The notes beneath the pieces are model-generated. The model searched no databases. It saw only the letters and a list, made by a program, of their open reading frames with translations, and was not told the DNA's origin. Positions 2,451 through 18,129 of a DNA stretch of 28,795 bases are shown here, in pieces. Both the position numbers and the translations under genes were made by a program. Source of the DNA: an uncultured Clostridia bacterium. Lineage in GTDB: Bacteria > Aerophobota > Aerophobia > Aerophobales > AE-B3A. The DNA is taken from the NCBI GenBank assembly GCA_964471775.1, contig CAYYHL010000002.1, positions 1 through 28,795 of the forward strand. The letters are read 5' to 3'. Every line of letters starts with the position of its first letter. Position 1 is the stretch's first letter.

Positions 2451-2478
2451 ATTATACTCTCCCAGAAAACTTTGTCAA
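2451..2478 (-). promoter_or_regulatory. sigma70-type promoter
   Basis: Minus strand reads TTGACA-N16-TATAAT (both hexamers perfect consensus), pointing toward the molybdoenzyme operon about 330 nt downstream. Confidence 0.8.
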
Positions 2479-3140: not shown

Positions 3141-3156
3141 CTTGCCTCCTCTCTTT

Positions 3157-3414: not shown

Positions 3415-3599
3415 AGTTCTCCTCTGTTACACTAAACTGCCAAGCGTCCTCTATCCCACAACTGGCTTTAAAAAAAGTCTCTTGATGAAGGGGCTGTAAT
3501 TCTAACCAAGATATAGGTTGCCTTCGACCAAGATCAGGCCTCTATGAACGTCTATGGAGCTCTTTTCCTCTTGTCAATCGGCGCAAAACCTGGATTTGC

Positions 3600-3833
3600 T
3601 CAGCTTTCTTCCTTGGCAACACTCCTGGCAATCACTATGGTCACAATAACGGCTACGACTGTCACTACAATCGCATAGATGAGCATCGCCACAATGGTGT
3701 CAGGGTCTCCGAAGACCTTGGCAAAAATTGCCCTAATAGCTCCATTCCAGGCGAGGGCTGCTACTAAACCAAAAGCTGCTGTGAGTAGGGCTGCTATCCT
3801 TTCCCGAACCTGCTTGCGTACCTCGCTCTTCAT
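3600..3833 (-). CDS. small two-helix membrane protein, DUF5654-like
   Basis: AAGGAGG RBS; signature TAAFGLVAALAWNGAI followed by a second hydrophobic helix; 77 aa. Confidence 0.82.
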   Translation of the reverse strand: MKSEVRKQVRERIAALLTAAFGLVAALAWNGAIRAIFAKVFGDPDTIVAMLIYAIVVTVVAVIVTIVIARSVAKEES

Positions 3834-4433
3834 CCTCTTCCTCCTTTGCTAAATTTGATGAAGCTCACCTCCGAAAGTTACTCTTCCAGCTCTAAAGAAG
3901 TCGACGCTTTTTTCGTCATGTCGTCTCGAACCTACACTCTTCACCCTGGTCAGCACCCTGAGTTTTCAAAACATGTTGCATCCTGCGTGTCAACTCTCAG
4001 GATATGCCCAGATGTCATTTGGGGTATGCTCCCGCTCCCCTTTGCCTTCGTCATAATCAGCGCTCTTAGAGGCACTTAGAGGCAAGAGAGGCCCAAGAGA
4101 AAACGTCAAAATCTATCAATGTAGCTTTCCCATTGAAAAGCTCGAAGCCCTTATTTTGGCTAATTTTGCGTCTTGTGTTAGAGCGTAGGGGTGTGTTTTC
4201 AACCAGCCTCATCTGTCTGTTCAGGTTGACGACGCCTGGTCGGGTGAAGGAGTGAAGCGGTGTCGCTTGACTTAAAGGGAACCAAGGGCTCTTGTCGGTT
4301 CTTCATGAAGCCACTCTTCTTCATCGAGGGGTATAGCTACTATCCAGGAAATCAACTGATCAGGAAACCCCTTGTAGGTAGTGGGATTGTAGTATAGATG
4401 GGGCGGCGATTTAACGAGGCGCGTTCTGCCATA

Positions 4434-4453
4434 TAAAAGAGAGCTCTGAAAAA
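4434..4453 (+). repeat. left terminal inverted repeat (including TA)
   Basis: TAAAAGAGAGCTCTGAAAAA, exact reverse complement of 4947-4966. Confidence 0.92.
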
Positions 4454-4964
4454 GTCGGCCTAATCTGGCTGAAGTTGTGAGGTTCTTTCTCAATTCTTCT
4501 TTCTTGTAGTTGACTAAAGTCCAGATTTGGTCTATCTTTGAAGTGATTTTGTCTCAGAATTCTGCAAGGAGGAAATCTAAGTGATCGGGAAAACTGACGC
4601 TCAAGGAAACTTCTTCGACTCCTACATCCAAGAGTACTTTCTACCCAAAGAGCATGAACTTCTCAAGATAAAGGAGAGTGTGGACTTTTCCTTCGTTGAG
4701 GAGGAGACCAGGGAACTTTATTCAGAAGACGTGGGAAGACCTTCTCATCCTCCAGTGGTAATGTTCAAGATTCTCTTCCTGGAGTTCTACTACAACCCCT
4801 CTGTTCAGGATAAAAAGGACTCAAAGAGCAAGAATTCTCTAGAAACGGGGAAAACCTGAAGAAGGATAAGGAAGAAAAGAGGATTTTCCGCCTCCACCGC
4901 CCGAAAAAACTTGAGTCAAGGCGAGAGAATTCGAAAAAGAAGCTAATTTTTCAGAGCTCTCTTT
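4436..4964 (+). mobile_element. internally deleted, non-autonomous IS (IS5/IS1182-like), 529 bp, both ends intact
   Basis: Perfect inverted repeats AAAGAGAGCTCTGAAAAA at 4436-4453 and 4947-4964, each flanked by TA (4434-4435, 4965-4966; possible target duplication). They enclose a transposase 5' fragment. Confidence 0.85.
4581..4859 (+). pseudogene. truncated transposase, IS5/IS1182-type N-terminal (DUF772-like) domain
   Basis: AAGGAGG RBS. HELLKIKESVDFSFVEEETRELYSEDVGRPSHPPVVMFKILFLEFYYN is the typical N-terminal motif. Similarity stops near 4800; no DDE catalytic domain follows. Confidence 0.88.
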
Positions 4965-4985: not shown

Positions 4986-5018
4986 TTGACAAATTTTTTT
5001 TGTTGAGCATAATATAAT
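4986..5018 (+). promoter_or_regulatory. sigma70-type promoter of the regulator / catabolic island
   Basis: TTGACA (4986-4991)-N16-CATAAT (5008-5013), with an overlapping TATAAT at 5013-5018; AT-rich. Confidence 0.7.
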
Positions 5019-5080: not shown

Positions 5081-5647
5081 ATGAGTCTGGGGAGAAGCAT
5101 TCGGCGCCGAAGAATGGAATTGGGTTTGAGGGGAATGGACCTGGCACGGACAAGTGGTCTGAGTTCGAGCTTTTTGAGCCAGATAGAAAAGGATAGAACG
5201 AGTCCTTCCGTGAGCACATTGAAGAAAATCGCTGAGGCACTTAATACATCTGTTGCCTCGTTTTTCGAATCAGCCTTTTCTGATGAAGAACAGGGAGAAG
5301 AACTTCAACATCAGTCACCTGTTGTTCGTGAAAGCGAACGCAAGGTCCTCTCCCTTGGTGAAGGAGTCAACTTTTTCCTTCTCAATCAAAATCTAAACGA
5401 GGGAGTCAAACTCATACTCAATATCCTGAGCCCGGGAGCAACGACATCTAAAGAACTGTACAGCCACCAGGGAGAAGAAGCCGGGTTAGTGTTGGAGGGA
5501 GAATTAGAAATTCAATTGGGGAATAGGAAGTATCACTTACAAAGTGGTGATAGCATTAGTTTCAAATCCACGATCCCTCATAGAAAGACAAACACAGGGC
5601 AATCTAAGTCGATTTCCGTGTGGGGGAACACCATGGTACCATTTTGA
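5081..5647 (+). CDS. XRE-family transcriptional regulator with C-terminal cupin sensor domain
   Basis: N-terminal HTH (LARTSGLSSSFLSQIEKDRTSPSVSTLKKIAEAL); cupin motifs HQGEEAGLVLEG and GDSISFKSTIPHR. Confidence 0.95.
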   Translation: MSLGRSIRRRRMELGLRGMDLARTSGLSSSFLSQIEKDRTSPSVSTLKKIAEALNTSVASFFESAFSDEEQGEELQHQSPVVRESERKVLSLGEGVNFFLLNQNLNEGVKLILNILSPGATTSKELYSHQGEEAGLVLEGELEIQLGNRKYHLQSGDSISFKSTIPHRKTNTGQSKSISVWGNTMVPF

Positions 5648-5941
5648 AGATGAGGATGGGTATTCCAAGACAATACTCAAGCCAGACTGGAAAAAGGCGG
5701 TGGTGTGAGGCAAAAGTGGCTGAGAAATGGGCTATCAAGGACCATAAGGAAAAGACAGGAGATCTTGTCTTCTTGCTAGATCCGTGATAACACAGAAAGG
5801 GGGTGATGCACAAAGGGGAGAGAAGTCGACTGGCTTTCAAGCGAGAGAAGGCCCAGGAGAGAAGAGAAGTCAAAATGACCGACTATTGTTCCCTAAGCCG
5901 ATCGGTAGTGATATGAACAAGACAATCATGAGGAGGACAAA

Positions 5942-7342
5942 ATGAAACGGAGGATGAGAATAGGCCTAGCCAGTCTGTGTTTGGCAGTTCTGATGCTTGT
6001 AGCGTTCACAGCTTCTGGCTGGGCTGTTGAGTATATTGATGGAACCTGGCCACACCTGCGGGCTGGCAAACCTTTTGCGGGAACAACGATTGTGGTTTCC
6101 ACAATGGAGGGATGGACTTGCATTGCGCCGGCAGTAGAGCGAACTGGCCAATTCGAGGAACTGACTGGCATCAAAGTCGAGTGGTTCCAGCTCCCGGGGA
6201 GTGAGCTTTATGCGAAGCAAATCATCGAGCTGAGCGCTCATACAGGGTATGCGGATGTTGTTCAGCAGCCCGGGATATTCATGCTCCCGTGTTTTCCCTA
6301 CTTGGAACCCCTTGATAGCTACATCACGGAAGGATGGGGAAGCACCGCCCAGTTCGAGGACGAGATGTGGGAGCTTCAGAAGCAGGTAAAGGGACCTTCT
6401 GGTCAGTATGCTATGGTGCAGTTCCATGCTAACGCTCAGGTTACATACTACAGAAAAGAGCTCTTTGAGGATCCTTCCGAAAAAGCTGCATTCCGCGAGC
6501 AATATGGCTACGACCTCAAAGTCCCCGAGACACTCCAACAGCTAAAGGATGTTGCAACGTTCTTCACGCGACCGCCTGACATGTATGGGTTCGTCATGAA
6601 CCTGGGTATGGACCAAGGTTATACTGCTCAGAACGACCTGTACCTGGAGACCGGGAGAGACTGGGTGGAAAAAGTTGACGGTGGCTATCGCTGCACGTAT
6701 GCCAGCGGAGAAGGCCGTGAGGAGCAGATAATGCTCGCTCAATGGCTGCAGGATGCCATATACAAGGACAAGTACATGGCCCCCGACTCTGCTACATTGA
6801 CAACAGGGCCCGTTTCCGAGTACTTCTTCGGGGGTCACGCAGCAATGGCCTGGGGTTGGCTCTCTGACTTCTGGGGATATATGCAGACTCCAGAGATCAA
6901 GAACAAAGTCGGTGAGATTGGGACATTTCGTCTTCCCCTGCCCGTGCCTATCCGCGGCGGTGGGCATGCATCCTATTGGGGTGTCGGCATCAACGGGGAT
7001 AGCAGACACAAAGATGCGGCATGGGAATTCATAAAATGGCTGATGCAGGAAGACATCCAGTTGCCAATGGCCAAAGATGGTGGGCAATTGCCTCCCTACA
7101 AGAAACTTGCCTACTACACGTCCGTCGATCCGGGGGGAATCAATCCGAGGACACTTTACGACAAGTACCTTGAGGCCAGACATCCCTATCTCGTGCCTCT
7201 CCTTGGGCTGGGACCATTCACACAAGCCTCGGATCTCCACAACTTGTTGACTGCAAATAAGATTACGGGAGAGGAGTTTACTGATCGGGCAGCGAAGGCT
7301 ACAGAGGACGCTTTGGACAGAGCAGGACTGCTCGCAAAGTGA
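5942..7342 (+). CDS. ABC transporter substrate-binding protein, CUT1 (carbohydrate uptake 1) type
   Basis: Signal peptide; YYRKELFE, PETLQQLKD, FFGGHAAMAWGW, SYWGVGINGDSRHKDAAWEFIKWL; 466 aa; GAGGAGG RBS. Confidence 0.92.
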   Translation: MKRRMRIGLASLCLAVLMLVAFTASGWAVEYIDGTWPHLRAGKPFAGTTIVVSTMEGWTCIAPAVERTGQFEELTGIKVEWFQLPGSELYAKQIIELSAHTGYADVVQQPGIFMLPCFPYLEPLDSYITEGWGSTAQFEDEMWELQKQVKGPSGQYAMVQFHANAQVTYYRKELFEDPSEKAAFREQYGYDLKVPETLQQLKDVATFFTRPPDMYGFVMNLGMDQGYTAQNDLYLETGRDWVEKVDGGYRCTYASGEGREEQIMLAQWLQDAIYKDKYMAPDSATLTTGPVSEYFFGGHAAMAWGWLSDFWGYMQTPEIKNKVGEIGTFRLPLPVPIRGGGHASYWGVGINGDSRHKDAAWEFIKWLMQEDIQLPMAKDGGQLPPYKKLAYYTSVDPGGINPRTLYDKYLEARHPYLVPLLGLGPFTQASDLHNLLTANKITGEEFTDRAAKATEDALDRAGLLAK

Positions 7343-8253
7343 GTGAGAATCAAGTAGGGACTGCTGCGAGAGAATCAGTCCTGAAAAGGGTGGGGCTACT
7401 CTTATGGGTAGTCCCACCACTTGTTTTCTTCGCAGTGTTCCTCGGCTATCCGCTGGGAATGCTTGTTTACACAAGCCTGAGGAATAAGAATATTCCTCTG
7501 ATGATCGACAACTTCGCCGGACTTGCGAACTATGCGAGGCTCTTTAGCTCGTGGAGCTTCTACGCGGCAGTTCTTCGGACCCTGGCATACATAGGAGTGT
7601 GTGTGGGGGTAAGCCTCGTCGGGGGGCTTTTTCTTGCCGTATTTAACGCATCTATAGAGCGCCACATATCACGTGTATTCTCAAGAGTTCTCCACATAAT
7701 CATCATACTGCCATTGTTGCTGATGCCTGCTGCTGCCGCGGTCATGTGGGCTTTCGCCCTTACCGAGCAATACGGATGGGTCAATTACTTGCTCTCATTT
7801 GTGGGCATTAGAGCCCGGCCGTGGCTGGCGACTTACTCTGCGTTCTATTGGGTGATGCTTGCAGATATCTGGTCCTGGACACCGTATGTGTATCTGATCC
7901 TGCTAGCTGGAATTCAGGGGATCCCTGAAGAACCCTTGGAGGCTGCAAGAATTGACGGTGCTTCCCGGTGGCAGTCATTCTTCCTTGTCACACTTCCACT
8001 TCTGAAACGAGTGTTGCTGATTGCCATAGTTCTTAAGACAATTGACACCTCGAAAGCTTTCGACTACCTGTGGATAATGACAAGAGGCGGACCCGGCGAG
8101 GCATCCACAACGCTCAACGTGCATCTTTTCAAGACTGCATTCCGAATGTGGGATACCGGAGGAGGTGCTGCGATTGGTGTGTGTATTTTGTGTCTTGTAT
8201 TGGGCATCGTTCTTCTCTTGTTCAAGGTATCACGACTCAGAAAGGTAGATTGA
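7339..8253 (+). CDS. carbohydrate ABC transporter permease (MalF/UgpA-like)
   Basis: Multiple TM helices; EAA motif EEPLEAARIDGASRWQSFFLVTLPLL; GTGA overlap with the binding-protein stop. Confidence 0.95.
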   Translation: MSENQVGTAARESVLKRVGLLLWVVPPLVFFAVFLGYPLGMLVYTSLRNKNIPLMIDNFAGLANYARLFSSWSFYAAVLRTLAYIGVCVGVSLVGGLFLAVFNASIERHISRVFSRVLHIIIILPLLLMPAAAAVMWAFALTEQYGWVNYLLSFVGIRARPWLATYSAFYWVMLADIWSWTPYVYLILLAGIQGIPEEPLEAARIDGASRWQSFFLVTLPLLKRVLLIAIVLKTIDTSKAFDYLWIMTRGGPGEASTTLNVHLFKTAFRMWDTGGGAAIGVCILCLVLGIVLLLFKVSRLRKVD

Positions 8254-9113
8254 TGAAGTTGCCGTCGTCCAAGCTTACTATGAAAGTGCTCCTGGTGGTT
8301 ATTGCTTGTGTGGTAGTGATGTGGTGTCTTTTCCCGATCGCGTGGTTCGGTTTGGTTTCCTTCACCATACCAGGACATATTCCCGAGGGCTTGGGCATTC
8401 CCGAGGTCCTCAGTTTCGACTCCTACCGGTCAATACTAAACCTCGGTGAGGTTAGCGTTGCCATGTCCCGCTTGTCTGTGGTTGCGGAGATGCGCAATTC
8501 CCTCATAGTTGGCACCATGACCGTGGCGCTGTGCTTACTCCTGGCAATTGGACCAAGCTATATCTTGTCTCGATTTTCGGCTCGCTACCGAGAACTGGGG
8601 GCGATTTTTGGCACATTTCTGGTTGTGCGAACCATACCGCCGGTGACAATTATAATCAGCCTTTTCATAATTCTTAACAAGTATCGACTCATGGATACGT
8701 ATTGGGGATTAGTGCTTATTGAGACGGTATTCCTGTTGCCGATGTCGGTATGGTTACTATCGAGCTTCTTTGACCTAGTTCCTCGAGAACTGGAAGAACA
8801 GGCTTTCACAGACGGCGCGTCGCGATTTGGTACTGTATTCCGCGTTGTCCTACCTCTGGCTGCCCCTGGGATAGCTGTCACCGGATGTCTCGTGTTCCTT
8901 TTCAGTTGGATTGAGTACCTTTTGCCCCTTATCATTACAAGAATAAACACAAAGACGCTTCCTCTCGCCATCGCTGGTTTCTTGGGTGAACACCAGACCT
9001 TCTTTAACGAAATGGGGGCAGCATCTCTTCTGTCGATGATTCCTCTTGCCATTTTCTTTCTAGTGGCTGGAAGGTATATGGTGAGGGGGCTCACGATGGG
9101 AGCCTTCAAGTAG
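8253..9113 (+). CDS. carbohydrate ABC transporter permease (MalG/UgpE-like)
   Basis: EAA motif ELEEQAFTDGASRFGTVFRVVLPLAAPG. Start moved from 8070 to ATG 8253 (TGATG coupling; MKLPSSK). Confidence 0.95.
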   Translation: MKLPSSKLTMKVLLVVIACVVVMWCLFPIAWFGLVSFTIPGHIPEGLGIPEVLSFDSYRSILNLGEVSVAMSRLSVVAEMRNSLIVGTMTVALCLLLAIGPSYILSRFSARYRELGAIFGTFLVVRTIPPVTIIISLFIILNKYRLMDTYWGLVLIETVFLLPMSVWLLSSFFDLVPRELEEQAFTDGASRFGTVFRVVLPLAAPGIAVTGCLVFLFSWIEYLLPLIITRINTKTLPLAIAGFLGEHQTFFNEMGAASLLSMIPLAIFFLVAGRYMVRGLTMGAFK

Positions 9114-9339
9114 AAAGGAGAAAAGGGCTCTTTCAGCACGAGTGGTCGCAGTGTGCGGGGCAAGACGCCTGTGGATAGGACAACTGCCCTATACGAGAAG
9201 TCGGCAGGCTCGGGTGTCTACCGTACGAATACTCGTCGGTGCGTGTATCGCTGGCTGTGTCCGAGCGGTACCTAGCAGTGCATGTTGATAGCAATAATCA
9301 CGGGGCCTGGAAGTGTTCCGGTGGGGTGAGAGGAGTGAA

Positions 9340-10299
9340 ATGAACGTATCCAAACAGGTAATGACCAACATGCTCAGAAGAATGTACACGATAAGAATGT
9401 TCGAGGGCAAAGCTAAGGAACTGTATGCCAAAGGATTGATTACAGGGGCTCTCCATTGCTACAGCGGAGAGGAAGCTATTGCGGTTGGGGCTTGCGCCGT
9501 CATTCAGCCCCAAGACTACGTGGTGAGCACTCATCGAGGTCACGGCCATTGTATAGCCAAGGGTGCGGATATCAAGAGAATGATGGCCGAGCTGTTGGGA
9601 AGAGAGAGCGGCTATTGCAGGGGAAGAGGTGGATCCATGCACTTGACAGATCCGCGGGTAGGAATGCTCACAGCCTGTGGTATTGTGGGCGGAGGGATTC
9701 CAATATCTTTGGGCGTGGCCTTCTCCTCTCAATATCAGGAAAACGGCCGAGTGACATTGTGTTTCTTTGGAGATGGTGCTACCAATCAAGGTACTTTTCA
9801 CGAATCTTTGAATATAGCCTCCCTATGGAAGTTACCGGTGGTTTTCATCTGTGAGAATAACGGCTATGCCATCAGTGTCCCCATAAGTCGTTCTCTCTCC
9901 GTGAAGAATGTCTCAGACAGAGCTATCTCTTATGCAATGCCGGGGAAATCGGTAGACGGAAACGATATCATTGCTGTGTATGAAGTTGTGGATGACGCTG
10001 TGAGAAGGGCGAGAGATCAGGAGGGGCCTACTCTCATCGAGGCCGTTACCTTTCGCCTGGAGCGTCACGCTATGCTTGATATGGAAACACGAACCAGAGA
10101 AGAAATGGACAAGTGCAGGAGGTTAGATCCGATTTCGCGCTTTGAGCGAAAACTCATGCTGGAAAAAGCTATGAACCAAGAAGAGGTAGCACGGATTACG
10201 AAGAAGGTAGAACAAGAGGTGGATGAAGCGGCCAAGTTCGCCCAGAAAGGCTCTTTTCCGGATCCAAAGAGTACCATGGATTACCTCTACTGTGATTGA
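9340..10299 (+). CDS. ThDP-dependent 2-oxoacid/acetoin dehydrogenase E1 component, alpha subunit (PdhA/AcoA-like)
   Basis: GALHCYSGEEA, STHRGHGH, GRGGSMH, ThDP motif FFGDGATNQG...ENN. Start moved to ATG 9340 after GAGGAG. Confidence 0.95.
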   Translation: MNVSKQVMTNMLRRMYTIRMFEGKAKELYAKGLITGALHCYSGEEAIAVGACAVIQPQDYVVSTHRGHGHCIAKGADIKRMMAELLGRESGYCRGRGGSMHLTDPRVGMLTACGIVGGGIPISLGVAFSSQYQENGRVTLCFFGDGATNQGTFHESLNIASLWKLPVVFICENNGYAISVPISRSLSVKNVSDRAISYAMPGKSVDGNDIIAVYEVVDDAVRRARDQEGPTLIEAVTFRLERHAMLDMETRTREEMDKCRRLDPISRFERKLMLEKAMNQEEVARITKKVEQEVDEAAKFAQKGSFPDPKSTMDYLYCD

Positions 10300-10330
10300 G
10301 AGTGCGAATTGACCAAGAAACGAGGATAAA

Positions 10331-11302
10331 GTGAGAGAAATCAGTTATCGTCAGGCTCTAAATGAAGCTATGCAAGAGGAAATGGAAAGAGACGCCTCTG
10401 TGTTCTACATAGGGGAGGACGTGGGAGCCTACGGTGGTGTGCGCCAGATAACAAAAGGCCTTCAGGACAGATTTGGGGAAAAAAGAGTCAAGGATACCCC
10501 AATATCGGAGGCAGCTATTGTGGGGTTGGGAACTGGAGCTGCCATCATGGGTCTGCGTCCTATCGTTGAGATTATGTCAGTCGATTTCGCCACATTGGCC
10601 ATGGATCAGATATGCAATCAAGCAGCCAAACTAAGATATATGAGCGGAGGGGTTCTAGCAGTACCCCTGGTGGTAAGGACGGAGGGCGGATCAGGAAGTG
10701 GAGAGGCAGCCCAACATTGCCAGAGTCTGGAAGCCTGGTTTGTGCACACCCCGGGGTTAAAGGTAGTAATTCCTTCGACTCCGTATGATGCCAAGGGATT
10801 ATTCAAGACCTCAGTTAGGGATAACAATCCGGTGATATTCATTGGGCACAAACTTCTCTACCCACGAACTGGACCTGTGCCAGAAGGGGAATACACTGTT
10901 CCTTTTGGTCAGGCAAAGGTGGTGAGGGAGGGCAAAGACATCACGGTGGTGGCGACGTCTCTAATGGTTCACAGGGCTCTTGAGGCCGCCCGAGTTCTAG
11001 AACAAGAGGGGATAAGCTTGGACATTGTCGACCCTCGAACTTTAGTTCCCTTTGACTCCGAGACCATCCTCAATTCTGTCAAGAGAACTGGCCACCTGGC
11101 GATTGTGCACGAAGCGTGCCTCAGAGGAGGTATAGGCGGAGATATCGCTCGTCAGATGATGAAGGATGGGTTTGATTATCTTGATGGTCCCATCGAGGTT
11201 GTAGCCGGAAAAGACATTCCTATACCCTATGAGAGGAGTATGGAAGAGTCCGCGGTGCCCCAAGTGAGGGATATAGTGGATGTGACGAGACAAATGCTCT
11301 GA
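10331..11302 (+). CDS. ThDP-dependent dehydrogenase E1 component, beta subunit (PdhB/AcoB-like)
   Basis: GEDVGAYGG, DTPISEAAIVG, AQHCQSLEAW, DPRTLVPFD, VHEA. Confidence 0.95.
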   Translation: MREISYRQALNEAMQEEMERDASVFYIGEDVGAYGGVRQITKGLQDRFGEKRVKDTPISEAAIVGLGTGAAIMGLRPIVEIMSVDFATLAMDQICNQAAKLRYMSGGVLAVPLVVRTEGGSGSGEAAQHCQSLEAWFVHTPGLKVVIPSTPYDAKGLFKTSVRDNNPVIFIGHKLLYPRTGPVPEGEYTVPFGQAKVVREGKDITVVATSLMVHRALEAARVLEQEGISLDIVDPRTLVPFDSETILNSVKRTGHLAIVHEACLRGGIGGDIARQMMKDGFDYLDGPIEVVAGKDIPIPYERSMEESAVPQVRDIVDVTRQML

Positions 11303-11405
11303 TGTTTTCGAGGAGCTAGAAAGGGCTGCCCAATGTGGCAGCCTTTGGCACACTCCATTTGTACGATCATAGATATAGACTGTTCTCTTCGAGGGAGGAA
11401 AGCAA

Positions 11406-12131
11406 ATGTATGGATGGCGAGGGCGAATCGGTTTGATGATACCGTCTACTGTAACAACAATAGACTCAGAGTTCCACAGACTCGTTCCTGACGGTGTATC
11501 GGTGCATACCACAAGGATGTTTCACACCAAGAGCACCCCCGAGGGACTGGCCAGTCTGTCCGACAGCATTGAAAGAGCCGCTGAGGAACTCGCAACAGCG
11601 CACGTCAATGTTATCGCTTTCGGTTGCACGTCTGGGGGTCTGCTCAAGGGGGAAAAGTGGGAAAAGGAGATTAGGGAAAGGATTGAGAAAACGAGCGGTA
11701 TCCCAGCCGTGACCACCATAGAATCGGTTGTGGAGGCTCTTCAAATTCTAGGAATGAACAGGGTGATAGTGGCAACGCCCTATGTCCAGGAAGTCAATGA
11801 CTTGGAAAGGAGCTTCTTAGAGAAAAAAGGGGTTGAGGTACTGGGAATAAGGGGAATTGGCATTGTGGAATCGGTAGAGATTGGTGACCAACCTCCCTGG
11901 GTAAGCTACACATTGGCCAAAGAAGTGTTTTTGGAATACCCACAGGCTGGAGGAATCTTCATAAGCTGTACGAATTTTCGGACAATAGAAATAATTGAGA
12001 AGCTGGAAAAAGACGCCCAGATTCCTGTCGTCACCAGTGTTCAGGCCACGTTGTGGAACTGTCTGCGAAAGATCCACTGCAACGAACCGATTCTCGGTTA
12101 CGGAAAGCTTCTCCGAATCACCGATGAATAA
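11406..12131 (+). CDS. maleate cis-trans isomerase / Asp-Glu racemase superfamily protein (two-Cys type)
   Basis: GRIGLMIPS, FGCTSG (Cys74), VATPY, ISCTNF, PVVTSVQATLW. Confidence 0.9.
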   Translation: MYGWRGRIGLMIPSTVTTIDSEFHRLVPDGVSVHTTRMFHTKSTPEGLASLSDSIERAAEELATAHVNVIAFGCTSGGLLKGEKWEKEIRERIEKTSGIPAVTTIESVVEALQILGMNRVIVATPYVQEVNDLERSFLEKKGVEVLGIRGIGIVESVEIGDQPPWVSYTLAKEVFLEYPQAGGIFISCTNFRTIEIIEKLEKDAQIPVVTSVQATLWNCLRKIHCNEPILGYGKLLRITDE

Positions 12132-12170
12132 GCTTCCAAAGACAGAAGCAAAGGATGAAAGGAAAGGACG

Positions 12171-13562
12171 GTGAAGCCAAAAGTTGGGTTGCTAACCTTC
12201 GCCGAGCAAAGAGAGGAATTCTACGTCAAGCGCAAGCACATAGTGGAGGAGGAATCAAGGAACGTAATAGACGCTTTGAGGGGCAGATTTGAATGTGTAT
12301 CGCCAAACCTCATACGGTCAAAAAATGAGCTCGTTTCCGCCATTGAGAAGGTCCGCGAAGAAAGCATAGACTGTCTTGTTGTATCACTCCCGGTCTGGAG
12401 CGCCCCCAATCTTCCCGTCATGGGTGTCAGACTTCTCGAACTTCCCACCATACTGTACAGCAATAATCGGCTTGATTCGTCTAGCCAGGTGGCAATACTT
12501 GCCACTGGTGGAGCACTCGATCAGATAGGCTTCCCCCACCAGCGAGTTGTTGGATCTATTGACGATGCGCAGACACTAGGAGCTATTGATGCATTCTGCA
12601 CAGCGGCGAGCGCTATGAACCGGCTCAAGGGGACAACCTATGGGTGCTTTGGTGGAAGGAGTCTTGGTATCTGCACCGCAACAGCAGATCTTGCGCAATG
12701 GCAAAGTCTCTTCGGCATAGACATTGAACATATTGATCAGATGGAAATCGTGAGGAGAGCAGGAAGTGTGCAAGAAAAGGAGATTCAACAACACATGGAG
12801 TGGATAGAGAAGAACTTCGGCGCAATAGAGTATGATGGCACTTTCCTCACTCCTGAGAAGTTGCGTTCACAGATTCGTGATTACCTTGCCACCAAGAGAA
12901 TCGCCGAAGAGATGGGTCTTGATTTCATAGGCATTAAGTGCCAAACCGAGATGAGCGATCACCACGTACTTCAGTGCTTGAACCAAATGCTGCTCAATGA
13001 TCCCTACGATGCAGAAGGGCCGAAAGAACCCGTCGTATCCAGCTGTGAGGCTGATCATGATGCAGCTCTTTCCATGCAAATTCTGAAGTTCATGTCAGGA
13101 GGAAGCCCCACCTTGTTCTTGGACATAAGACACGTTGCAGAATCGCAGATCATCGGTGCCAATTGTGGTTCTATGCCAAGTTGGTTTGCCAACTACTCTA
13201 AGAACCCTTCACACAATACGAAGGAAGTGCACCTTATCCCCCCAGCATTTGGGAAGGCTGGGGGGTGCGCTGTGCAATTCGTTGCAGGGTCCGGCCCTGT
13301 AACCCTGGCCAGATTGTGTAGAAGAAAGGGTAACTACTGGATGGCTATCCTCAAGGGGTCAATCAATAGGAAACGACGAGAAGAACTGAAGAAAACCACC
13401 TGGGCCTTTCCCCACGCGTTTATCCAGGCCGATTTCGATCACAAAGAGTTTCTAGGCACCTATGGGTCGAATCACATCCATGGCGCACGCGGTGACTGCG
13501 TGAATGAACTGGTTCAGTTCTGCAAGCTACTGTCATTGGACTACATAGTCTATTCACGGTAA
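12171..13562 (+). CDS. L-fucose/L-arabinose isomerase-like aldose-ketose isomerase
   Basis: FIGIKCQTEM, metal-binding CEADHDAALSM, VTLARL, C-terminal YGSNHIHG; 463 aa, shorter than canonical FucI. Confidence 0.85.
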   Translation: MKPKVGLLTFAEQREEFYVKRKHIVEEESRNVIDALRGRFECVSPNLIRSKNELVSAIEKVREESIDCLVVSLPVWSAPNLPVMGVRLLELPTILYSNNRLDSSSQVAILATGGALDQIGFPHQRVVGSIDDAQTLGAIDAFCTAASAMNRLKGTTYGCFGGRSLGICTATADLAQWQSLFGIDIEHIDQMEIVRRAGSVQEKEIQQHMEWIEKNFGAIEYDGTFLTPEKLRSQIRDYLATKRIAEEMGLDFIGIKCQTEMSDHHVLQCLNQMLLNDPYDAEGPKEPVVSSCEADHDAALSMQILKFMSGGSPTLFLDIRHVAESQIIGANCGSMPSWFANYSKNPSHNTKEVHLIPPAFGKAGGCAVQFVAGSGPVTLARLCRRKGNYWMAILKGSINRKRREELKKTTWAFPHAFIQADFDHKEFLGTYGSNHIHGARGDCVNELVQFCKLLSLDYIVYSR

Positions 13563-13655
13563 TACGAACCTATTGAAACGGTGGCCGAGAGACTAGGGAT
13601 GGTGCAAGACACCCGATTCTCCAGTTGCCCAAAATACCAGATAAGGAGTGTCAAT

Positions 13656-14885
13656 GTGAAGTACGGAAGAAATTACATGCCGGACAAATGGTGCGTCAGC
13701 GAGTTCTGTTTCAATGAGGAAGTGCGAAAAGCCATGAGACTCCCAAGCAAATTCCACATACGGGACTCTACCATACGTGAGGGAGATGAACAGCCAGGAT
13801 GCTATATGTCTCCTGACGACAAATTGAAAGTTGCTGAAAAGGTCTATGAAATAGGAATCAAGGAAATCGATGTTGGATTCGTGGGGGCTGTGGATGAACA
13901 CTACAGGACAGCGCAGCTGATCAAGAAACAAATTCCCCAGCTGGAAACCTCAGCAATCATCAAGACATGGGTTCCCACTTGGAAGGATGAGCTCAATAGA
14001 GCTATAGATGCAGGAGTTGATAGGGTTGAACCCTGGAATCATCCCATCATAAACCATGCCTCAGATGAACAGGTCGCAGAGTTAGGCCACACCAGGGAGG
14101 AGCTGATCCCTCGGATTGTGGAAGTGATACAGTGTGCGAAAGGGCAAGGGGTGAAAGTGTCCTACATGCAGTGTGACGCCATGAGGAGTAGCTGGGATTT
14201 CTTGGAGTCAATCCTTTCTGCAGTTGAGAGAGCGGGCGTCGACCGATTGAGTGTAGCCGAGGATGGCTATGCTTCCCCTCCTGCAGTAAGGTTCTTGATG
14301 GATAAGCTCACGGAATTACTAAGGGTACCCATACTTTGGCACAGCCATAATGATTTTGGCCTTTCTGTCGCCAATGTACTGGCAGCCGTCGAGCGTGGGG
14401 CTCAAGCTGCAGATCTCATCATTAACGGCATGGGGGATAAAGCCGGAATAACATCTTTGGAAGAAGTGGTTGTGTCACTGGAATGTATGTACGGAGTTGA
14501 CACGGGAGTGAAGCTGGAAAAGCTCTATGGGCTCTCCAAGTTTGTTGAGGAACTCACCGGCATTCGATGCCAACCTCACAAAGCGATAGTTGGCGAGAAT
14601 GCGTTCCTTCATGAATCAGAGCTGCATGCCTATTGCATTATCACCGGAATCTGGGAGGCAATGGAAGGGTTTCGTGCCGAACTCGTCGGCAACAAAAGAC
14701 GGGTTGTTTTTGGAGATACAACCTTGCACGGCGAGGCTGCCCGAGCAAGACTCAGGGTCCTAGGACTGGAATATACGGATGAGGATGTCAAGAAGATTCT
14801 CGACGAAGTCCGCAAGGTCCTGCCCAAGAAACACACTATCTCGCTTGAAGAATTCGACCAGATCGCGAAGAAGGTGGTAGCTTAG
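13656..14885 (+). CDS. DRE-TIM metallolyase, homocitrate / 2-isopropylmalate / Re-citrate synthase-like, divergent; no LeuA regulatory domain
   Basis: RDSTIREGDEQPG, WHSHNDFGLSVAN, NGMGDKAG, PHKAIVGENAFLHES. Start moved to GTG 13656 after AAGGAG. Confidence 0.85.
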   Translation: MKYGRNYMPDKWCVSEFCFNEEVRKAMRLPSKFHIRDSTIREGDEQPGCYMSPDDKLKVAEKVYEIGIKEIDVGFVGAVDEHYRTAQLIKKQIPQLETSAIIKTWVPTWKDELNRAIDAGVDRVEPWNHPIINHASDEQVAELGHTREELIPRIVEVIQCAKGQGVKVSYMQCDAMRSSWDFLESILSAVERAGVDRLSVAEDGYASPPAVRFLMDKLTELLRVPILWHSHNDFGLSVANVLAAVERGAQAADLIINGMGDKAGITSLEEVVVSLECMYGVDTGVKLEKLYGLSKFVEELTGIRCQPHKAIVGENAFLHESELHAYCIITGIWEAMEGFRAELVGNKRRVVFGDTTLHGEAARARLRVLGLEYTDEDVKKILDEVRKVLPKKHTISLEEFDQIAKKVVA

Positions 14886-15029
14886 ATTTTGGAAGCTACT
14901 GAAGTCCAAGAGGCAGCGTAAGATAAGGCATTTGTACAGTTGAGCAGCAAAGGGTAAGTGCTATTGATGTGACGCAAACTACAAAGAGTAGTGCTTTGAC
15001 ATTGATGACCTGATCAGAAAGGATGAAGA

Positions 15030-16187
15030 ATGCGAAAGATAGATGTCGGTGTTATAGGATGCGGAAGCATAGCGGAAATCGCTCATTTTCCTTCGATCAA
15101 GAAACTTCCTGAAACTGAACTTGTAGCCGTGTGTGATACGGACGAGCCTAGAGCGCAAGAGATGGCAAAAAAATGGGAAGCCCGAACCTACTTCGCTGAC
15201 TATGACAGGATGCTCAATGACACGGACCTTGATGCCGTCGTCATTGCGACTCCGAATTCTCTTCACTACCAGCATGCCATCGCAGCTGCTGGGGCTGGGG
15301 CACATCTCTTGGTGGAGAAGCCTCTTGCCATCACCAACAAACAGGCTTGGGGTATCGTGGAAGCGTACAAAAAAGCAGGAAAGAAGCTGATGGTAGGCTG
15401 TGACAGAAGGTTCTGGCTGCAAAATGAATATGCGAAGCAGTTGATTACGGAGGGAGTGATTGGTGAGCCCGTAATGGGATTTGCGTGCCAATATCAACAC
15501 TTCTTCTACTACCAGGAAAAATTGGCAAGAACTGACTTCAGACTGAAGCCAAACCTGGCCGGTGCAGCAGCTATTCTGGATCTCGGTGCTCACGCCATTG
15601 ACCTTATTACGTGGCTCATGGGAAGCGAGGTAAAGAGTGTCACGGGCATTGCAAAACGTTTGGTGATACCGGAAGAATATACCCCATTGGATGACACTGT
15701 TTGGATTCTTATGGAGCACAAGAACGGTTCCTACAGTTGTGTCACGTGCAATCGATTCTCACCGGTGGTGGTCCAGGCCACCGGTGTTCATGGCAGCCAG
15801 GGAACGATACAGACAAGTTCTGATGCAACCAACCCATTCCAAATGGCACCTTTGGCAGTCTATACAAATAGGGACTACAACGCGGATGAACTACCGGACA
15901 TTATCAGAGACTACCGCTACCCGCAGACATGGTGGGCTGAGGATTTCGTGAGCCAGCCTGTCGGGAAACGCTGGGTTCCGATATATCCTCCGAGAGAATC
16001 AAACTATGAAAGGATGTGGAAGCATTTTGTCAAATGCATTGTTGAAGATACGGAACCACGAGTAACAGGTGAGGATGGAGCACGAGCATTAGAGGTGATG
16101 TGCGGGACTTTCAAATCAATGAAGACAAGGGCATGGGTTGATCTTCCTCTTGAGGAAGAAGTGTTGCCACCACACTATGGTGGATGA
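15030..16187 (+). CDS. Gfo/Idh/MocA family NAD(P)-dependent oxidoreductase
   Basis: VGVIGCGSIA, VIATPNSLH, LVEKPLA, ILDLGAHAID. Confidence 0.95.
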   Translation: MRKIDVGVIGCGSIAEIAHFPSIKKLPETELVAVCDTDEPRAQEMAKKWEARTYFADYDRMLNDTDLDAVVIATPNSLHYQHAIAAAGAGAHLLVEKPLAITNKQAWGIVEAYKKAGKKLMVGCDRRFWLQNEYAKQLITEGVIGEPVMGFACQYQHFFYYQEKLARTDFRLKPNLAGAAAILDLGAHAIDLITWLMGSEVKSVTGIAKRLVIPEEYTPLDDTVWILMEHKNGSYSCVTCNRFSPVVVQATGVHGSQGTIQTSSDATNPFQMAPLAVYTNRDYNADELPDIIRDYRYPQTWWAEDFVSQPVGKRWVPIYPPRESNYERMWKHFVKCIVEDTEPRVTGEDGARALEVMCGTFKSMKTRAWVDLPLEEEVLPPHYGG

Positions 16188-16213
16188 GGGAAGAGAATAC
16201 GGGGGAGAGGACA

Positions 16214-17125
16214 ATGAGTGAAAACAACCGCCACAAGCTGGGGCTGGAACTGAAGAAAAAAGCCTACAAACTCCGGATAACGGAACTTGAGATGATGAGA
16301 GATGCTGAAACAAGTGGACACTACGGCGGGTCTATGTCAGTCATGGACATTCTCACGGTCCTCTATTTCGGCGTCATGCGGCTGGACCCGGCAAATCCAG
16401 ACTGGGAAGACCGGGATCGGTTCGTCTTGAGCAAAGGACACACCTGCAATGCTTTGGCAACGGTTTTGGCGGACAAGGGGTTCATCTCCGGCGAGATCCT
16501 TGCCACGTTCAATAAGCTGGACAGCCCCTTGGGACAGCACCCTGACAGAAACAAGATACGTGGATGTGACGCGAGTACGGGTTCCCTGGGTCACGGAGCT
16601 GCTCTTGCTGTCGGCATGGCTATGGCCGGGAGGGTGTTAAAGAAGGACTACAGGGTGTATACAGTGCTGAGTGACGGCGAGATGGCTGAGGGTTCCACGT
16701 GGGAAGCCATTGAGATCGCTTCCCATTTCAAGGTGGACAATGTGTGTGGAACGATTGACAGGAACGGACTTAGTCTTGATGGCCCCACTGAGGGTCCGGG
16801 GGTCCTTGGAGAACGCGGCTTCGAAGGGACAATGACCCTCGAGCCTCTCGGTAAGAAGCTGGCGCTTTTTGGCTGGCATGTCATAGAATGTGACGGGCAT
16901 GACTTCTCTCAGCTACTCGGTGCTTACGAGGAAGCCGCGAAGACCAAAGGAAAACCGACCATGATCGTAGCAAATACCGTGAAGGGCAAAGGTGTTTCAT
17001 TCATTGAGGATAGATACGAATGGCACTACGGACAATTCAGTGCTGAGCAGTACGAGTTGGCAATTGGCGAGTTGGCAGCTGTAGTGAAAAAGCTGGAGCA
17101 GGAACTGGGGCAAGAATCCGCATAA
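16214..17125 (+). CDS. split transketolase, N-terminal ThDP-binding subunit
   Basis: SGHYGGSMS, FVLSKGH, GQHPD, STGSLGHG, LSDGEMAEGSTWEA, IDRN, TVKGKG, WHYG. An alternative start at 16184 is possible. Confidence 0.93.
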   Translation: MSENNRHKLGLELKKKAYKLRITELEMMRDAETSGHYGGSMSVMDILTVLYFGVMRLDPANPDWEDRDRFVLSKGHTCNALATVLADKGFISGEILATFNKLDSPLGQHPDRNKIRGCDASTGSLGHGAALAVGMAMAGRVLKKDYRVYTVLSDGEMAEGSTWEAIEIASHFKVDNVCGTIDRNGLSLDGPTEGPGVLGERGFEGTMTLEPLGKKLALFGWHVIECDGHDFSQLLGAYEEAAKTKGKPTMIVANTVKGKGVSFIEDRYEWHYGQFSAEQYELAIGELAAVVKKLEQELGQESA

Positions 17126-17139
17126 AGGGAGGAAAACAA

Positions 17140-18129
17140 ATGGCAACAGTATCTAGTTGGACAGAGGCTGACTTAGCGGATACTCTCACTCCCAGGGATG
17201 TTTTCGGGAAGGTGTTAATTGAGCTTGCAAGAGAAAACCCAAGAATCGTTGCACTATGTGCTGATCTTATGGTTTCCACCAAACTGAAGCGTTTTGCACA
17301 GGAATTCCCGGACAGGTTCTTCGAGACCGGACTCACCGAGCAGGCTACTGTGGGGGTTTGCGCGGGAATGGCGAGTTGCGGATTAATACCGTTCTTTGCG
17401 ACCTTCGCCCCATTTGCCACCATGAGACCCTGTGAGCAGGTGAGGACCGATATCACCTACCAGAATCTCAATGCAAAAATTGTCGGGACCCACGCGGGGC
17501 TCAGTATTGGGCCGGCAGGAACAACTCATCATTCTACTGAAGACATAGCCATTACGCGTTCCATGGCTAATATGACAGTGTTGGTACCCTCAGACCTGAT
17601 TCAGACAGTAAAGGTTCTGCAAAGCGCAGCAGATTTTGAGGGTCCATGCTACATTCGGCTTGTCAGAGGAGCCGAGTCCTTGGTTAGCATTTACGAGAGC
17701 GTAGAGAATTGTCCATTTGAGATTGGAAAAGCCACCGTGATCAAAGAGGGTAGTGACCTAACCCTGATTGCTGCGGGGACACCCGTCGTGCAGGAATCGC
17801 TCGTTGCAGCCAGGGGGTTGGAAAAAGAGGGCATCCACGCACGAGTGATTGATATGGCTTCTGTAAAGCCCATTGATAGAGAGAAGATTGTGAAGGCAGC
17901 TGAAGAAACCGGGGGTATAATCACGGTGGAGGATCACAGCATCAAAGGCGGATTAGGCTCGGCAGTCGCTGAAGTGGTGGTAGAAGAGAGGCCAGTCCCC
18001 ATGAAACTGGTGGGAATTCCTGACACCTACTCGGCGCTTGGACCTTGCGAGGAACTATGGAGGAGATACGGCCTGAACAGTGACTGTCTTGCGGAAACAG
18101 TGAGGACTTTTGTCAAACGACTGGGGTAA
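17140..18129 (+). CDS. split transketolase, pyrimidine-binding plus C-terminal subunit
   Basis: FFETGLTEQ, GTTHHSTED, YIRL, KPIDRE, VEDHSIKGGLGSAVAE. Confidence 0.95.
   Translation: MATVSSWTEADLADTLTPRDVFGKVLIELARENPRIVALCADLMVSTKLKRFAQEFPDRFFETGLTEQATVGVCAGMASCGLIPFFATFAPFATMRPCEQVRTDITYQNLNAKIVGTHAGLSIGPAGTTHHSTEDIAITRSMANMTVLVPSDLIQTVKVLQSAADFEGPCYIRLVRGAESLVSIYESVENCPFEIGKATVIKEGSDLTLIAAGTPVVQESLVAARGLEKEGIHARVIDMASVKPIDREKIVKAAEETGGIITVEDHSIKGGLGSAVAEVVVEERPVPMKLVGIPDTYSALGPCEELWRRYGLNSDCLAETVRTFVKRLG

What the first reader, a model, noticed from the sequence alone, without database searches (positions are those of the whole stretch)
9340..11302. E1 alpha/beta pair without E2, E3 or lipoyl carrier, inside a sugar operon
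Seen: intact E1 alpha (GDGA...N, His in RLERHAMLD) and E1 beta. The next gene is a maleate-isomerase-family gene; no lipoyl-domain acyltransferase or dihydrolipoamide dehydrogenase lies in the island. Known: PDH, BCKDH and acetoin dehydrogenase operons usually carry E2/E3. Inference: this E1 may borrow E2/E3 in trans, or act alone as a decarboxylase or ketol-cleaving/transferring enzyme on a sugar-derived 2-oxo acid or acyloin.
Basis: partly seen in the sequence, partly recalled or inferred. Interest (0 to 1): 0.6.

Follow-up and report, generated by a model that had tools for sequence, protein, structure and literature searches.

The report
Sugar-operon E1 pair lacking its own E2
An uncultured sediment bacterium (Candidatus Aerophobetes) carries an intact thiamine-dependent E1 alpha/beta enzyme inside a sugar-uptake operon with no E2/E3 partner nearby; it most likely feeds a sugar-derived fragment to the genome's single E2/E3 set encoded elsewhere, so it is an uncharacterised member of a known enzyme family and not a new kind of system.

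Summary
Intact E1 alpha (9340-10299) and E1 beta (10331-11302) genes sit in a long same-strand carbohydrate operon, and the 28.8-kb window has no lipoyl, E2 or E3 gene.

The genome is a 79%-complete Candidatus Aerophobetes MAG. Elsewhere it encodes one E1ab-E2 operon, an E3 followed by a lipoate ligase, and a third E1ab pair beside a split transketolase.

The pattern is typical of the lineage. In relatives, 14 of 16 assessable E1ab loci lack an E2, each genome has about one E2, and that E2 usually stands apart from every E1. The E2-less pairs sit in sugar and polyol clusters.

In other phyla the nearest homologues (45-53% identity) carry an adjacent lipoyl E2 in 110 of 128 assessable loci, including loci in sugar contexts.

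The window's E1 keeps both histidines used for reductive acylation and the acidic residue that docks E2. It also has unusual changes in the lipoyl-gating loop.

Best reading (about 0.5): an AcoAB/PDH-type E1 with a sugar-derived substrate that uses E2/E3 in trans. A stand-alone ThDP lyase, carboligase or decarboxylase (about 0.3) is not excluded. The substrate is unknown.

Earlier notes of this scan report similar E2-less pairs on other DNA.

The parts
5081..5647 (+). XRE-HTH plus cupin regulator at the head of the same-strand gene run
   Evidence: Pfam HTH_3 and Cupin_2. An 11/12 sigma-70-like site lies at 4986-5013.
5942..9113 (+). CUT1-type ABC importer: solute-binding protein (5942-7342) and two permeases (7339-8253; 8070/8250-9113)
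   Evidence: Pfam SBP_bac_1 and BPD_transp_1 twice.
9340..10299 (+). E1 alpha subunit (ThDP-binding), 319 aa
   Evidence: E1_dh 299.9 bits. TIGR03182 scores 368 bits, below its cut-off of 393.85. E-value 1.3e-59 (205 bits) to human PDH E1 alpha. H243 aligns with human H263, taken from prior knowledge to be the equivalent of G. stearothermophilus H271 alpha.
10331..11302 (+). E1 beta subunit, 323 aa
   Evidence: Transket_pyr and Transketolase_C. PRK09212 scores 411 bits. E60, F86, H129 and D285 align with G. stearothermophilus E59, F85, H128 and E285; E285 corresponds to human D319.
11406..12131 (+). Asp/Glu-racemase-superfamily gene (arylmalonate decarboxylase / maleate isomerase / EutA-like)
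   Evidence: Pfam Amdase 139 bits. NCBIfam matches all fall below their cut-offs.
12171..13562 (+). Gene of the L-fucose/L-arabinose isomerase family
   Evidence: Pfam Fucose_iso_N1, N2 and C. A rare orthologue group at 60-69% identity exists.
13581..14885 (+). DRE-TIM (HMGL-like, isopropylmalate/homocitrate-synthase-like) gene
   Evidence: Pfam HMGL-like and HCS_D2. Every NCBIfam equivalog scores below its cut-off.
15030..16187 (+). Gfo/Idh/MocA sugar dehydrogenase
   Evidence: Pfam GFO_IDH_MocA and its C-terminal domains.
16184..18129 (+). Split transketolase: N subunit 16184-17125, C subunit 17140-18129
   Evidence: Pfam Transketolase_N, then Transket_pyr and Transketolase_C.
18538..19290 (+). 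SDR oxidoreductase
   Evidence: Pfam adh_short_C2 220 bits.

Best explanation
The two genes encode a working heterotetrameric (alpha2beta2) ThDP-dependent E1 of the acetoin/pyruvate-dehydrogenase type. It has been recruited into a carbohydrate operon. The likely mechanism has three steps. (1) The neighbouring isomerase and dehydrogenases turn the imported sugar into a 2-oxo acid or an acyloin/ketose. (2) The E1 forms an acyl-ThDP (enamine) intermediate, either by decarboxylation or by acetoin-type C-C cleavage, and releases CO2 or an aldehyde. (3) The acyl group is passed reductively to the lipoyl arm of the genome's only E2 (contig C14), which makes acyl-CoA, and the E3 on contig C297 re-oxidises the lipoate. 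Shown here: the gene integrity, the conserved catalytic and E2-docking residues, the presence of E2, E3 and lipoate ligases elsewhere in the genome, and the lineage-wide habit of keeping E1 and E2 genes apart. Inferred: that this E1 really docks on that E2, and what its substrate is.
For: Both genes are full length and match their profiles end to end. Alpha H243 and beta H129 are conserved, as are beta E60 and F86. Their roles in reductive acetylation and ThDP activation are described in PMC2663715. Beta D285 aligns with human beta-D319. The D319N change raises the E1-E2 dissociation constant more than 100-fold (PMC5554223). This Asp is kept in the window and in 19 of 19 E1 beta genes of the phylum. 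In other phyla a non-acidic residue at that column is commoner in E2-less loci (7 of 19) than in E2-linked loci (9 of 113; Fisher p = 0.002). The genome has an E2 with lipoyl, E3-binding and catalytic domains, an E3 directly followed by an LplA/B-type ligase, and two more ligases. Across the phylum, 28 of 31 genomes have a match to the E2 catalytic-domain family (usually a single one) and 0 to 4 E1ab pairs each. In 12 of the 14 genomes examined around the E2 gene, it stands apart from any E1. Homologues in sugar contexts elsewhere do carry E2 and E3: transketolase-E1a-E1b-E2-E3, FucI-like-E1a-E1b-E2, and DRL-E1a-E1b-E2-E3. Overall 110 of 128 assessable loci in other phyla have a lipoyl gene beside the E1.
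Against: No physical or co-expression link to the E2 on C14 was shown, and that E2 already has its own E1 pair. The window's E1 alpha sits on a long branch of 0.67. It carries changes at columns conserved in at least 88% of relatives, and these lie in the outer loop that gates the lipoyl domain: Gly to Arg next to the catalytic His, loss of a conserved Tyr, and a one-residue deletion shared with the 71-76% identical homologues P0002 and P0003. In beta, Ser to Cys next to H129, E172G and R290V are also unusual. The docking Asp is an imperfect predictor: 12 of 19 E2-less loci keep it and 9 of 113 E2-linked loci lack it. The genome is only 79% complete.
Confidence: 0.5

Rival explanations
1. The E1 works alone. 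It acts as a ThDP lyase, carboligase or decarboxylase on a keto-sugar or sugar acid. It either transfers or removes a two-carbon unit, or releases a free aldehyde, and uses no lipoyl acceptor.
For: The window has no E2, E3 or lipoyl gene. In relatives, 14 of 16 assessable E1ab loci lack one, against 18 of 128 in other phyla. The loop that engages the lipoyl domain is remodelled, and several near-invariant residues next to the catalytic histidines are changed. Precedents exist. Crucian-carp E1 paralogues act as a pyruvate decarboxylase free of E2 (PMC5554223). Plm8/Plm9-type E1 alpha/beta pairs attach a pyruvate-derived C2 branch to deoxysugars (PMC4802897). Split transketolase genes recur next to such pairs: the window, contig C412, L030, L109 and L131.
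Against: The carp-type signature, loss of the E2-docking Asp, is absent here. Both histidines needed only for the lipoate half-reaction are kept. No genome of the phylum was found with an E1ab pair and no E2, apart from one genome whose contig ends right after E1 alpha. The sugar-context homologues L109, L189 and L087 do carry E2.
Confidence: 0.3
2. It is an ordinary spare pyruvate or acetoin dehydrogenase E1, and its place in the sugar operon has no bearing on its substrate.
For: The best NCBIfam match is the PDH E1 alpha y-type model, and the beta subunit passes the PDH E1 beta subfamily model. Database sources name homologues as pyruvate dehydrogenase or acetoin:DCPIP oxidoreductase. The closest solved structure is human PDH E1.
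Against: The alpha score of 368 bits is below the equivalog cut-off of 393.85. The three E1 pairs of this genome are only 44-58% identical to one another, so they are old paralogues and not spares. The pair is embedded between an importer and sugar enzymes with no predicted terminator in between. E2-less paralogues in relatives recur in sugar and polyol clusters.
Confidence: 0.15
3. It is a decaying or non-functional remnant of a former complex.
For: A long terminal branch and several substitutions at conserved columns.
Against: Both reading frames are intact and full length, all catalytic residues are kept, and a good ribosome-binding site is present. Homologues at 76% and 71% identity keep the same unusual loop motif, which indicates purifying selection on a distinct subtype.
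Confidence: 0.05

Closest known systems
Acetoin dehydrogenase enzyme system E1 (AcoA/AcoB, acetoin:DCPIP oxidoreductase) with AcoC and AcoL
   Same: It has the same two-gene alpha/beta architecture. It shares the family-typical STHRGHGH motif, with His where PDH has Tyr. Identity is 45-53% to loci that carry E2 or an AcoC-type lipoyl/alpha-beta-hydrolase protein. The chemistry, C-C cleavage of an acyloin to acyl-lipoate plus an aldehyde, would suit a keto-sugar.
   Different: No AcoC or AcoL gene is adjacent. The E1 alpha lies outside the large E2-linked clade of mostly Bacillota/Clostridia loci. The lipoyl-gating loop is remodelled. The context is a sugar importer and sugar enzymes, not acetoin/butanediol genes. 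No characterised AcoA sequence was available to place in the tree.
Pyruvate dehydrogenase E1 alpha2beta2 (human 1NI4; Geobacillus stearothermophilus 1W85)
   Same: The fold family and all catalytic residues match (H271 alpha, H128 beta, E59 beta, F85 beta equivalents), and so does the E2-docking acidic residue. The beta subunit matches both structures at E-values of 1e-83 to 1e-89.
   Different: The score is below the NCBIfam PDH E1 alpha equivalog cut-off. There is no linked E2/E3. The Tyr89/Tyr102-equivalent residue is His. There are no phosphorylation-site serines.
E2-independent E1 alpha/beta enzymes: crucian-carp E1-derived pyruvate decarboxylase; Plm8/Plm9 and AviB1/AviB2 sugar C2-branching enzymes
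   Same: These are an E1 alpha/beta pair with no E2 of its own. The Plm and Avi enzymes use sugars as substrates (PMC5554223, PMC4802897).
   Different: The carp enzyme has lost the docking Asp (D319N), and the window's E1 beta keeps it. The Plm and Avi enzymes sit in antibiotic deoxysugar biosynthesis clusters, not in an import and catabolism operon. Their sequences were not compared here.
E1 genes unlinked to E2 in other prokaryotes (for example archaeal 2-oxoacid dehydrogenase operons of Haloferax volcanii; E2 shared by PDH and ODH in Corynebacterium and Mycobacterium). This item rests on prior knowledge and was not checked here.
   Same: Several E1 specificities exist per genome with fewer E2 cores, and E1 genes lie away from E2.
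   Different: Here the E2-less pairs are wired into sugar and polyol operons of a candidate phylum. No biochemical data exist for them.

Membership tests
Heterotetrameric ThDP-dependent E1 (E1_dh PF00676 with Transket_pyr/Transketolase_C beta subunit) | Full-length matches to the alpha and beta profiles, in adjacent genes | tested here: met
   Alpha covers profile positions 1-299 of 300 at 299.9 bits. Beta covers 2-173 of 174 and 1-124 of 124. The two genes are 31 nt apart.
Heterotetrameric ThDP-dependent E1 (E1_dh PF00676 with Transket_pyr/Transketolase_C beta subunit) | GDG...NN ThDP/Mg motif in alpha and the cofactor-activating Glu in beta | tested here: met
   D145 and N174 (equivalents of human D167 and N196) and beta E60 (equivalent of E59 beta) are conserved.
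Heterotetrameric ThDP-dependent E1 (E1_dh PF00676 with Transket_pyr/Transketolase_C beta subunit) | Histidines for reductive acylation of lipoate (H271 alpha and H128 beta of G. stearothermophilus) | tested here: met
   Alpha H243 and beta H129 align with them. Their roles are taken from PMC2663715.
Pyruvate dehydrogenase E1 alpha, NCBIfam equivalog TIGR03182 | Score at or above the curated cut-off of 393.85 bits | tested here: not met
   The score is 368.1 bits.
Complete 2-oxoacid/acetoin dehydrogenase complex | E2 (lipoyl acyltransferase) and E3 encoded with the E1 | tested here: not met
   No 2-oxoacid_dh, Biotin_lipoyl or Pyr_redox_dim match lies on contig C2. The lipoyl HMM finds nothing in the window.
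Complete 2-oxoacid/acetoin dehydrogenase complex | E2, E3 and lipoate attachment present somewhere in the genome | tested here: met
   E2 on C14 has lipoyl, E3_binding and catalytic domains. E3 on C297 is followed by an LplA/B ligase. Further ligases lie on C64 and C15.
Complete 2-oxoacid/acetoin dehydrogenase complex | Physical docking of this E1 on the E2 peripheral-subunit-binding domain | tested here: inconclusive
   The docking acidic residue is kept (beta D285, equivalent to human D319). That column is only a partial predictor. No complex modelling or binding assay was possible.
Acetoin dehydrogenase E1 (AcoAB) | Acetoin-cleaving activity, with acoC, acoL or butanediol genes alongside | not testable with these tools
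   Only source-given names of homologues at 50-55% identity point to AcoA. No aco partners are adjacent. No characterised AcoA sequence was available for the tree.
E2-independent E1 of the carp pyruvate-decarboxylase type | Loss of the E2-docking Asp in E1 beta | tested here: not met
   The Asp is retained. Lys, Arg or Ala at this column occurs in other E2-less lineages: L086, L108, L113, L097, L159, L166 and L199.

The most novel reading that the evidence does not exclude
Aerophobetes, and scattered members of other phyla, use a radiation of AcoAB-like E1 pairs as sugar-specific 'oxidative ketolases'. Each pair cleaves a particular keto-sugar or deoxy-keto-sugar made in its own operon. Here the route has no kinase gene and may be non-phosphorylative. 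All pairs unload the C2 acyl unit onto one shared E2/E3 hub to give acyl-CoA. This would be a modular way of sugar breakdown not described for these complexes.
Probability: 0.3. Interest if true: 0.7.

Novelty: new member of a known kind. Interest (0 to 1): 0.4.

Why it matters
E1 pairs annotated as 'pyruvate dehydrogenase' or 'acetoin dehydrogenase' and lacking an E2 are common in metagenome-assembled genomes, and they are routinely read as central metabolism. This case and its relatives suggest many of them are substrate-specific parts of sugar and polyol catabolism in subsurface bacteria. They may share one lipoyl E2 core. If so, carbon-flow reconstructions for such lineages are wrong at these steps, and a set of unknown ThDP-dependent sugar-cleaving reactions awaits assay. 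The E2-docking column of E1 beta, used here as a rough indicator, could help sort complex-bound from free-standing E1 enzymes.

Tried and rejected
The contigs of the closest homologues (P0002 76%, P0003 71%, P0004 61%) and of the FucI-like orthologues (P0122-P0131) could therefore not be fetched, and conservation of this exact operon remains untested.
- The scans of genome contigs and metagenome contigs returned nothing above 53% identity.
- The listing of cluster members gave no accessions or organisms for the close homologues.
- Searches of 41 relatives and of the whole phylum (31 genomes) found no orthologue above 53% identity.
- My first labelling of 'E2 present', by tblastn with the C14 E2, missed AcoC-type proteins (lipoyl + E3-binding + alpha/beta-hydrolase) in the Brucella, Ochrobactrum and Gemmobacter loci. 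I replaced it with a lipoyl-domain HMM. The labels on the tree still use the older scheme.
- In L131 an Asp/Glu-racemase-family gene follows the E1 beta gene and looked like a parallel to the window's Amdase-like gene, but the two proteins share no significant pairwise similarity.
- L191 is the only fetched locus with the same shortened alpha loop. It is cut at the contig start and is followed by complex I genes, so it is uninformative.
- The 226-nt spacer upstream of E1 alpha has no Rfam match and folds no better than shuffled sequence.
- Literature searches found no description of sugar-operon AcoAB-like E1 pairs, of a DRL-E1ab module, or of Aerophobetes dehydrogenase complexes.
- An E3-like pseudogene in 2400-4700 was considered and rejected: no Pfam match of that kind was found.
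Full report
**What is there.** The window holds two adjacent, intact genes on the + strand.
- E1 alpha starts at ATG 9340, which has a GAGGAG ribosome-binding site just upstream, and ends at 10299. It covers the Pfam E1_dh profile from position 1 to 299 of 300 at 299.9 bits.
- E1 beta (10331-11302) covers Transket_pyr and Transketolase_C completely.
- NCBIfam places alpha nearest the y-type PDH E1 alpha model, but at 368 bits against a cut-off of 393.85. Beta passes the PDH E1 beta subfamily model at 411 bits against 321.
- The nearest solved structures are human PDH E1 and the Geobacillus stearothermophilus E1.
- The next gene (11406-12131) belongs to the Asp/Glu-racemase superfamily, with a Pfam Amdase match.
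- The gene run 5081-23729 lies on one strand. In order it holds an XRE-cupin regulator, a CUT1 ABC importer, E1 alpha, E1 beta, the Amdase-like gene, a fucose-isomerase-family gene, a DRE-TIM (isopropylmalate-synthase-like) gene, a Gfo/Idh/MocA dehydrogenase, a split transketolase, an SDR, a CUT2 ABC importer and a URO-D-like gene.
- None of the genes annotated in this run matched a kinase family. No + strand terminator-like site is predicted between 7629 and 15071.
- No E2, E3 or lipoyl gene lies in the window.

**The rest of the genome.**
- The window is contig C2 of a 2.26-Mb, 445-contig, 79%-complete MAG.
- Every named relative of its GyrB, at 72-96% identity, is Candidatus Aerophobetes. 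No archaeal ribosomal protein S8e was found.
- Contig C14 carries E1 alpha (cut by the contig end), E1 beta and an E2 of 400 aa with lipoyl, E3-binding and catalytic domains.
- Contig C297 carries an E3 directly followed by an LplA/B-type lipoyl ligase. C36 has a second E3-like gene. C64 and C15 carry further ligases.
- Contig C412 (1.8 kb) holds a third E1 alpha/beta pair followed by the start of a split transketolase.
- The three E1 pairs are 44-58% identical to one another, so they are old paralogues.
- A lipoyl HMM built here finds only the C14 E2 in the whole assembly, plus one weak hit on C23 (23.9 bits; not identified, perhaps a biotin carrier). Two GcvH genes are also present.

**The lineage pattern.**
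- The reference set holds 31 genomes of this phylum, all in one order. Of these, 28 have a match to the E2 catalytic-domain family, usually a single one. Pairs of alpha/beta E1 genes number 0 to 4 per genome. Several genomes also have a fused form of about 800 aa.
- Among 20 E1ab loci fetched from relatives, 14 of the 16 with enough flanking DNA have no lipoyl gene nearby.
- In 12 of the 14 genomes examined around the E2 gene, no E1 lies next to it. Keeping E1 and E2 apart is therefore the rule in this phylum. The absence of E2 from this operon is by itself weak evidence for an E2-free enzyme.
- The E2-less pairs sit repeatedly in sugar and polyol clusters. These hold Zn-dependent alcohol dehydrogenases (12 loci), FGGY sugar kinases (10 loci), DRL/DXR-II-like oxidoreductases, RuBisCO-like proteins, RpiB, SorC regulators and CUT1 importers.
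Loci L029, L031 and L032 show the same pairing.

**Outside the phylum.**
- The nearest homologues in species-representative genomes and in metagenomes are 45-53% identical.
- Of 160 loci, 128 had enough flanking DNA to judge. Of those, 110 carry a lipoyl-domain gene next to the E1 pair and 18 do not.
- E2 linkage also holds in sugar contexts. A Christensenellaceae locus reads SDR, split transketolase, E1a, E1b, E2, E3. A metagenome locus reads FucI-like, E1a, E1b, E2. Mycolicibacterium loci read DRL, E1a, E1b, E2, E3. Brucella and Ochrobactrum loci read DRL, E1a, E1b, then an AcoC-type protein with lipoyl, E3-binding and alpha/beta-hydrolase domains.
- In a quick maximum-likelihood tree of 106 E1 alpha sequences, the window's protein has a long terminal branch of 0.67. 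It joins, without strong support, a Bathyarchaeia sequence and an Aerophobetes pair linked to a RuBisCO-like gene.
- E2-less and E2-linked loci are interleaved in that tree, and starred branches force at least 10-11 changes of state. The labels on that tree miss AcoC-type E2 proteins. There is no single 'E2-free' clade.

**Residue tests.**
- Pei et al. (PMC2663715) assign H128 beta as proton donor and H271 alpha as helper in the reductive acetylation of lipoate. They assign E59 beta and F85 beta to the cofactor.
- The window has beta H129, E60 and F86. Its alpha H243 aligns with human H263, which I take from prior knowledge to be the equivalent of H271 alpha. These residues are invariant or nearly so in the family.
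- Fagernes et al. (PMC5554223) report that beta-D319N in carp E1 breaks the salt bridge to E2, and that the same change raises the human E1-E2 dissociation constant more than 100-fold. The aligned residue is Asp in the window (D285) and in 19 of 19 E1 beta genes of the phylum.
- In other phyla a non-acidic residue at this column is found in 7 of 19 E2-less loci and in 9 of 113 E2-linked loci (Fisher p = 0.002). Related sequences are not independent, and the rule has exceptions both ways.
- On balance these tests say the enzyme is still built to work with a lipoyl E2.

**What is unusual in this copy.**
- At columns conserved in at least 88% of relatives, alpha has Arg instead of Gly just before the catalytic His. 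It has Thr instead of a loop Tyr, and a one-residue deletion. The motif RLERHAMLD...ET-RT is shared with the 71-76% identical homologues P0002 and P0003, and partly with P0004 and P0012. A TACG stretch replaces a GxNG motif.
- Beta has Cys instead of Ser next to H129, Gly for Glu at position 172 and Val for Arg at position 290.
- The alpha changes lie in the outer active-site loop, which in G. stearothermophilus E1 gates the lipoyl domain. They fit a changed substrate channel. They could also mean a changed acceptor, and this keeps the stand-alone reading alive.

**Mechanism.**
- My best reading (about 0.5) is an AcoAB/PDH-type E1 specialised for a product of this operon. The isomerase and the dehydrogenases would make a 2-oxo acid or an acyloin/ketose. 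The E1 would form the acyl-ThDP intermediate and pass the acyl group to the C14 E2, and the E3 would close the cycle.
- The recurrent neighbourhood of split transketolases fits a route in which C2 units are removed from keto-sugars. These neighbourhoods are the window, C412, L030, L109 and L131. The lack of any kinase gene in the operon fits such a route as well.
- One chemically coherent guess is acetoin-like cleavage of a methyl-ketone acyloin made from a 6-deoxy-hexose. That is inference only, and the substrate is unknown.
- The rivals are a free-standing ThDP lyase, carboligase or decarboxylase (about 0.3; precedents), a spare pyruvate or acetoin E1 (about 0.15) and a decaying gene (about 0.05).

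**Novelty and limits.**
- E1 pairs unlinked to E2 are known, and the family is well studied. This is a new, uncharacterised member of a known kind.
- The wider pattern of many sugar-operon E1 pairs per genome with one E2 was not found in the literature searched.
- The main gaps are as follows. No characterised AcoA, PdhA or BkdA sequences could be put in the tree. Docking on E2 was judged from one column only. The genome is incomplete.

Noticed in passing
L061, L066, L088 (Ochrobactrum, Brucella rhizosphaerae, Gemmobacter); L087, L092, L100, L194, L205 (Mycolicibacterium and other Actinomycetota, metagenomes); L035, L038, L040 (Aerophobetes relatives): A DRL/DXR-II-like oxidoreductase gene (Pfam DRL_cat) sits directly upstream of E1 alpha/E1 beta in three phyla. 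It is followed by E2+E3 in Mycolicibacterium, by an AcoC-type lipoyl/hydrolase protein in Brucella, and by nothing in Aerophobetes. The DXR-II family paper (PMC3847144) reports clades of unknown function and, on term search, no genome-context analysis. The module might act on deoxyxylulose- or methylerythritol-type compounds; that idea is speculation.
   Followed up: partly
L029, L031, L032 (Aerophobetes relatives G006, G009): A RuBisCO-like protein gene lies directly beside an E2-less E1 alpha/beta pair, together with FGGY kinases, Zn-dependent alcohol dehydrogenases and a 2-hydroxyacid dehydrogenase.
   Followed up: partly
G000 contig C412 (L004:1-1822); L131:481-4264; L109:1856-8387; L030: Split transketolase genes recur immediately next to AcoAB-like E1 pairs in unrelated contigs, with or without E2/E3. 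The window has the same two enzyme types 5 kb apart.
   Followed up: partly
window 5081-23729: None of the roughly 17 genes annotated in the same-strand sugar gene run matched a kinase family, although it includes a transketolase. Together these hint at a non-phosphorylative route.
   Followed up: no
L086, L108, L096, L094, L166, L181 (Burkholderiales, Rhizobium and metagenome loci); L113, L097 (Dehalococcoidia); L159, L199: These E1 beta genes have Lys, Arg or Ala where E2-docking Asp/Glu normally sits. Most of these loci have no lipoyl gene nearby and the rest are cut by a contig end. They are better candidates for truly E2-independent E1 enzymes than the window's copy.
   Followed up: partly
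G023:C171 (L222:7740-11238), G018:C70 (L217), and reading frames of about 790-818 aa in many genomes of the phylum: A fused E1 alpha-beta gene of about 800 aa, only about 30% identical to the window's alpha, precedes the single E2 in two genomes and occurs unlinked in others. It may be the 'housekeeping' E1 of the phylum. It was not found in G000, which is 79% complete.
   Followed up: no
window 2400-4700: About 2.3 kb has no reading frame longer than about 120 codons on either strand. The only Pfam match is a small DUF5654 membrane protein (3603-3848, minus strand). The region is either a cluster of small genes or degraded sequence.
   Followed up: partly
G000 contig C14 (L015:11141-12166, minus strand), window 22584-25218, L040, L048: URO-D/MtaA-like genes recur beside E1/E2 genes and sugar importers in this genome and its relatives. 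One follows the E2 on C14.
   Followed up: no
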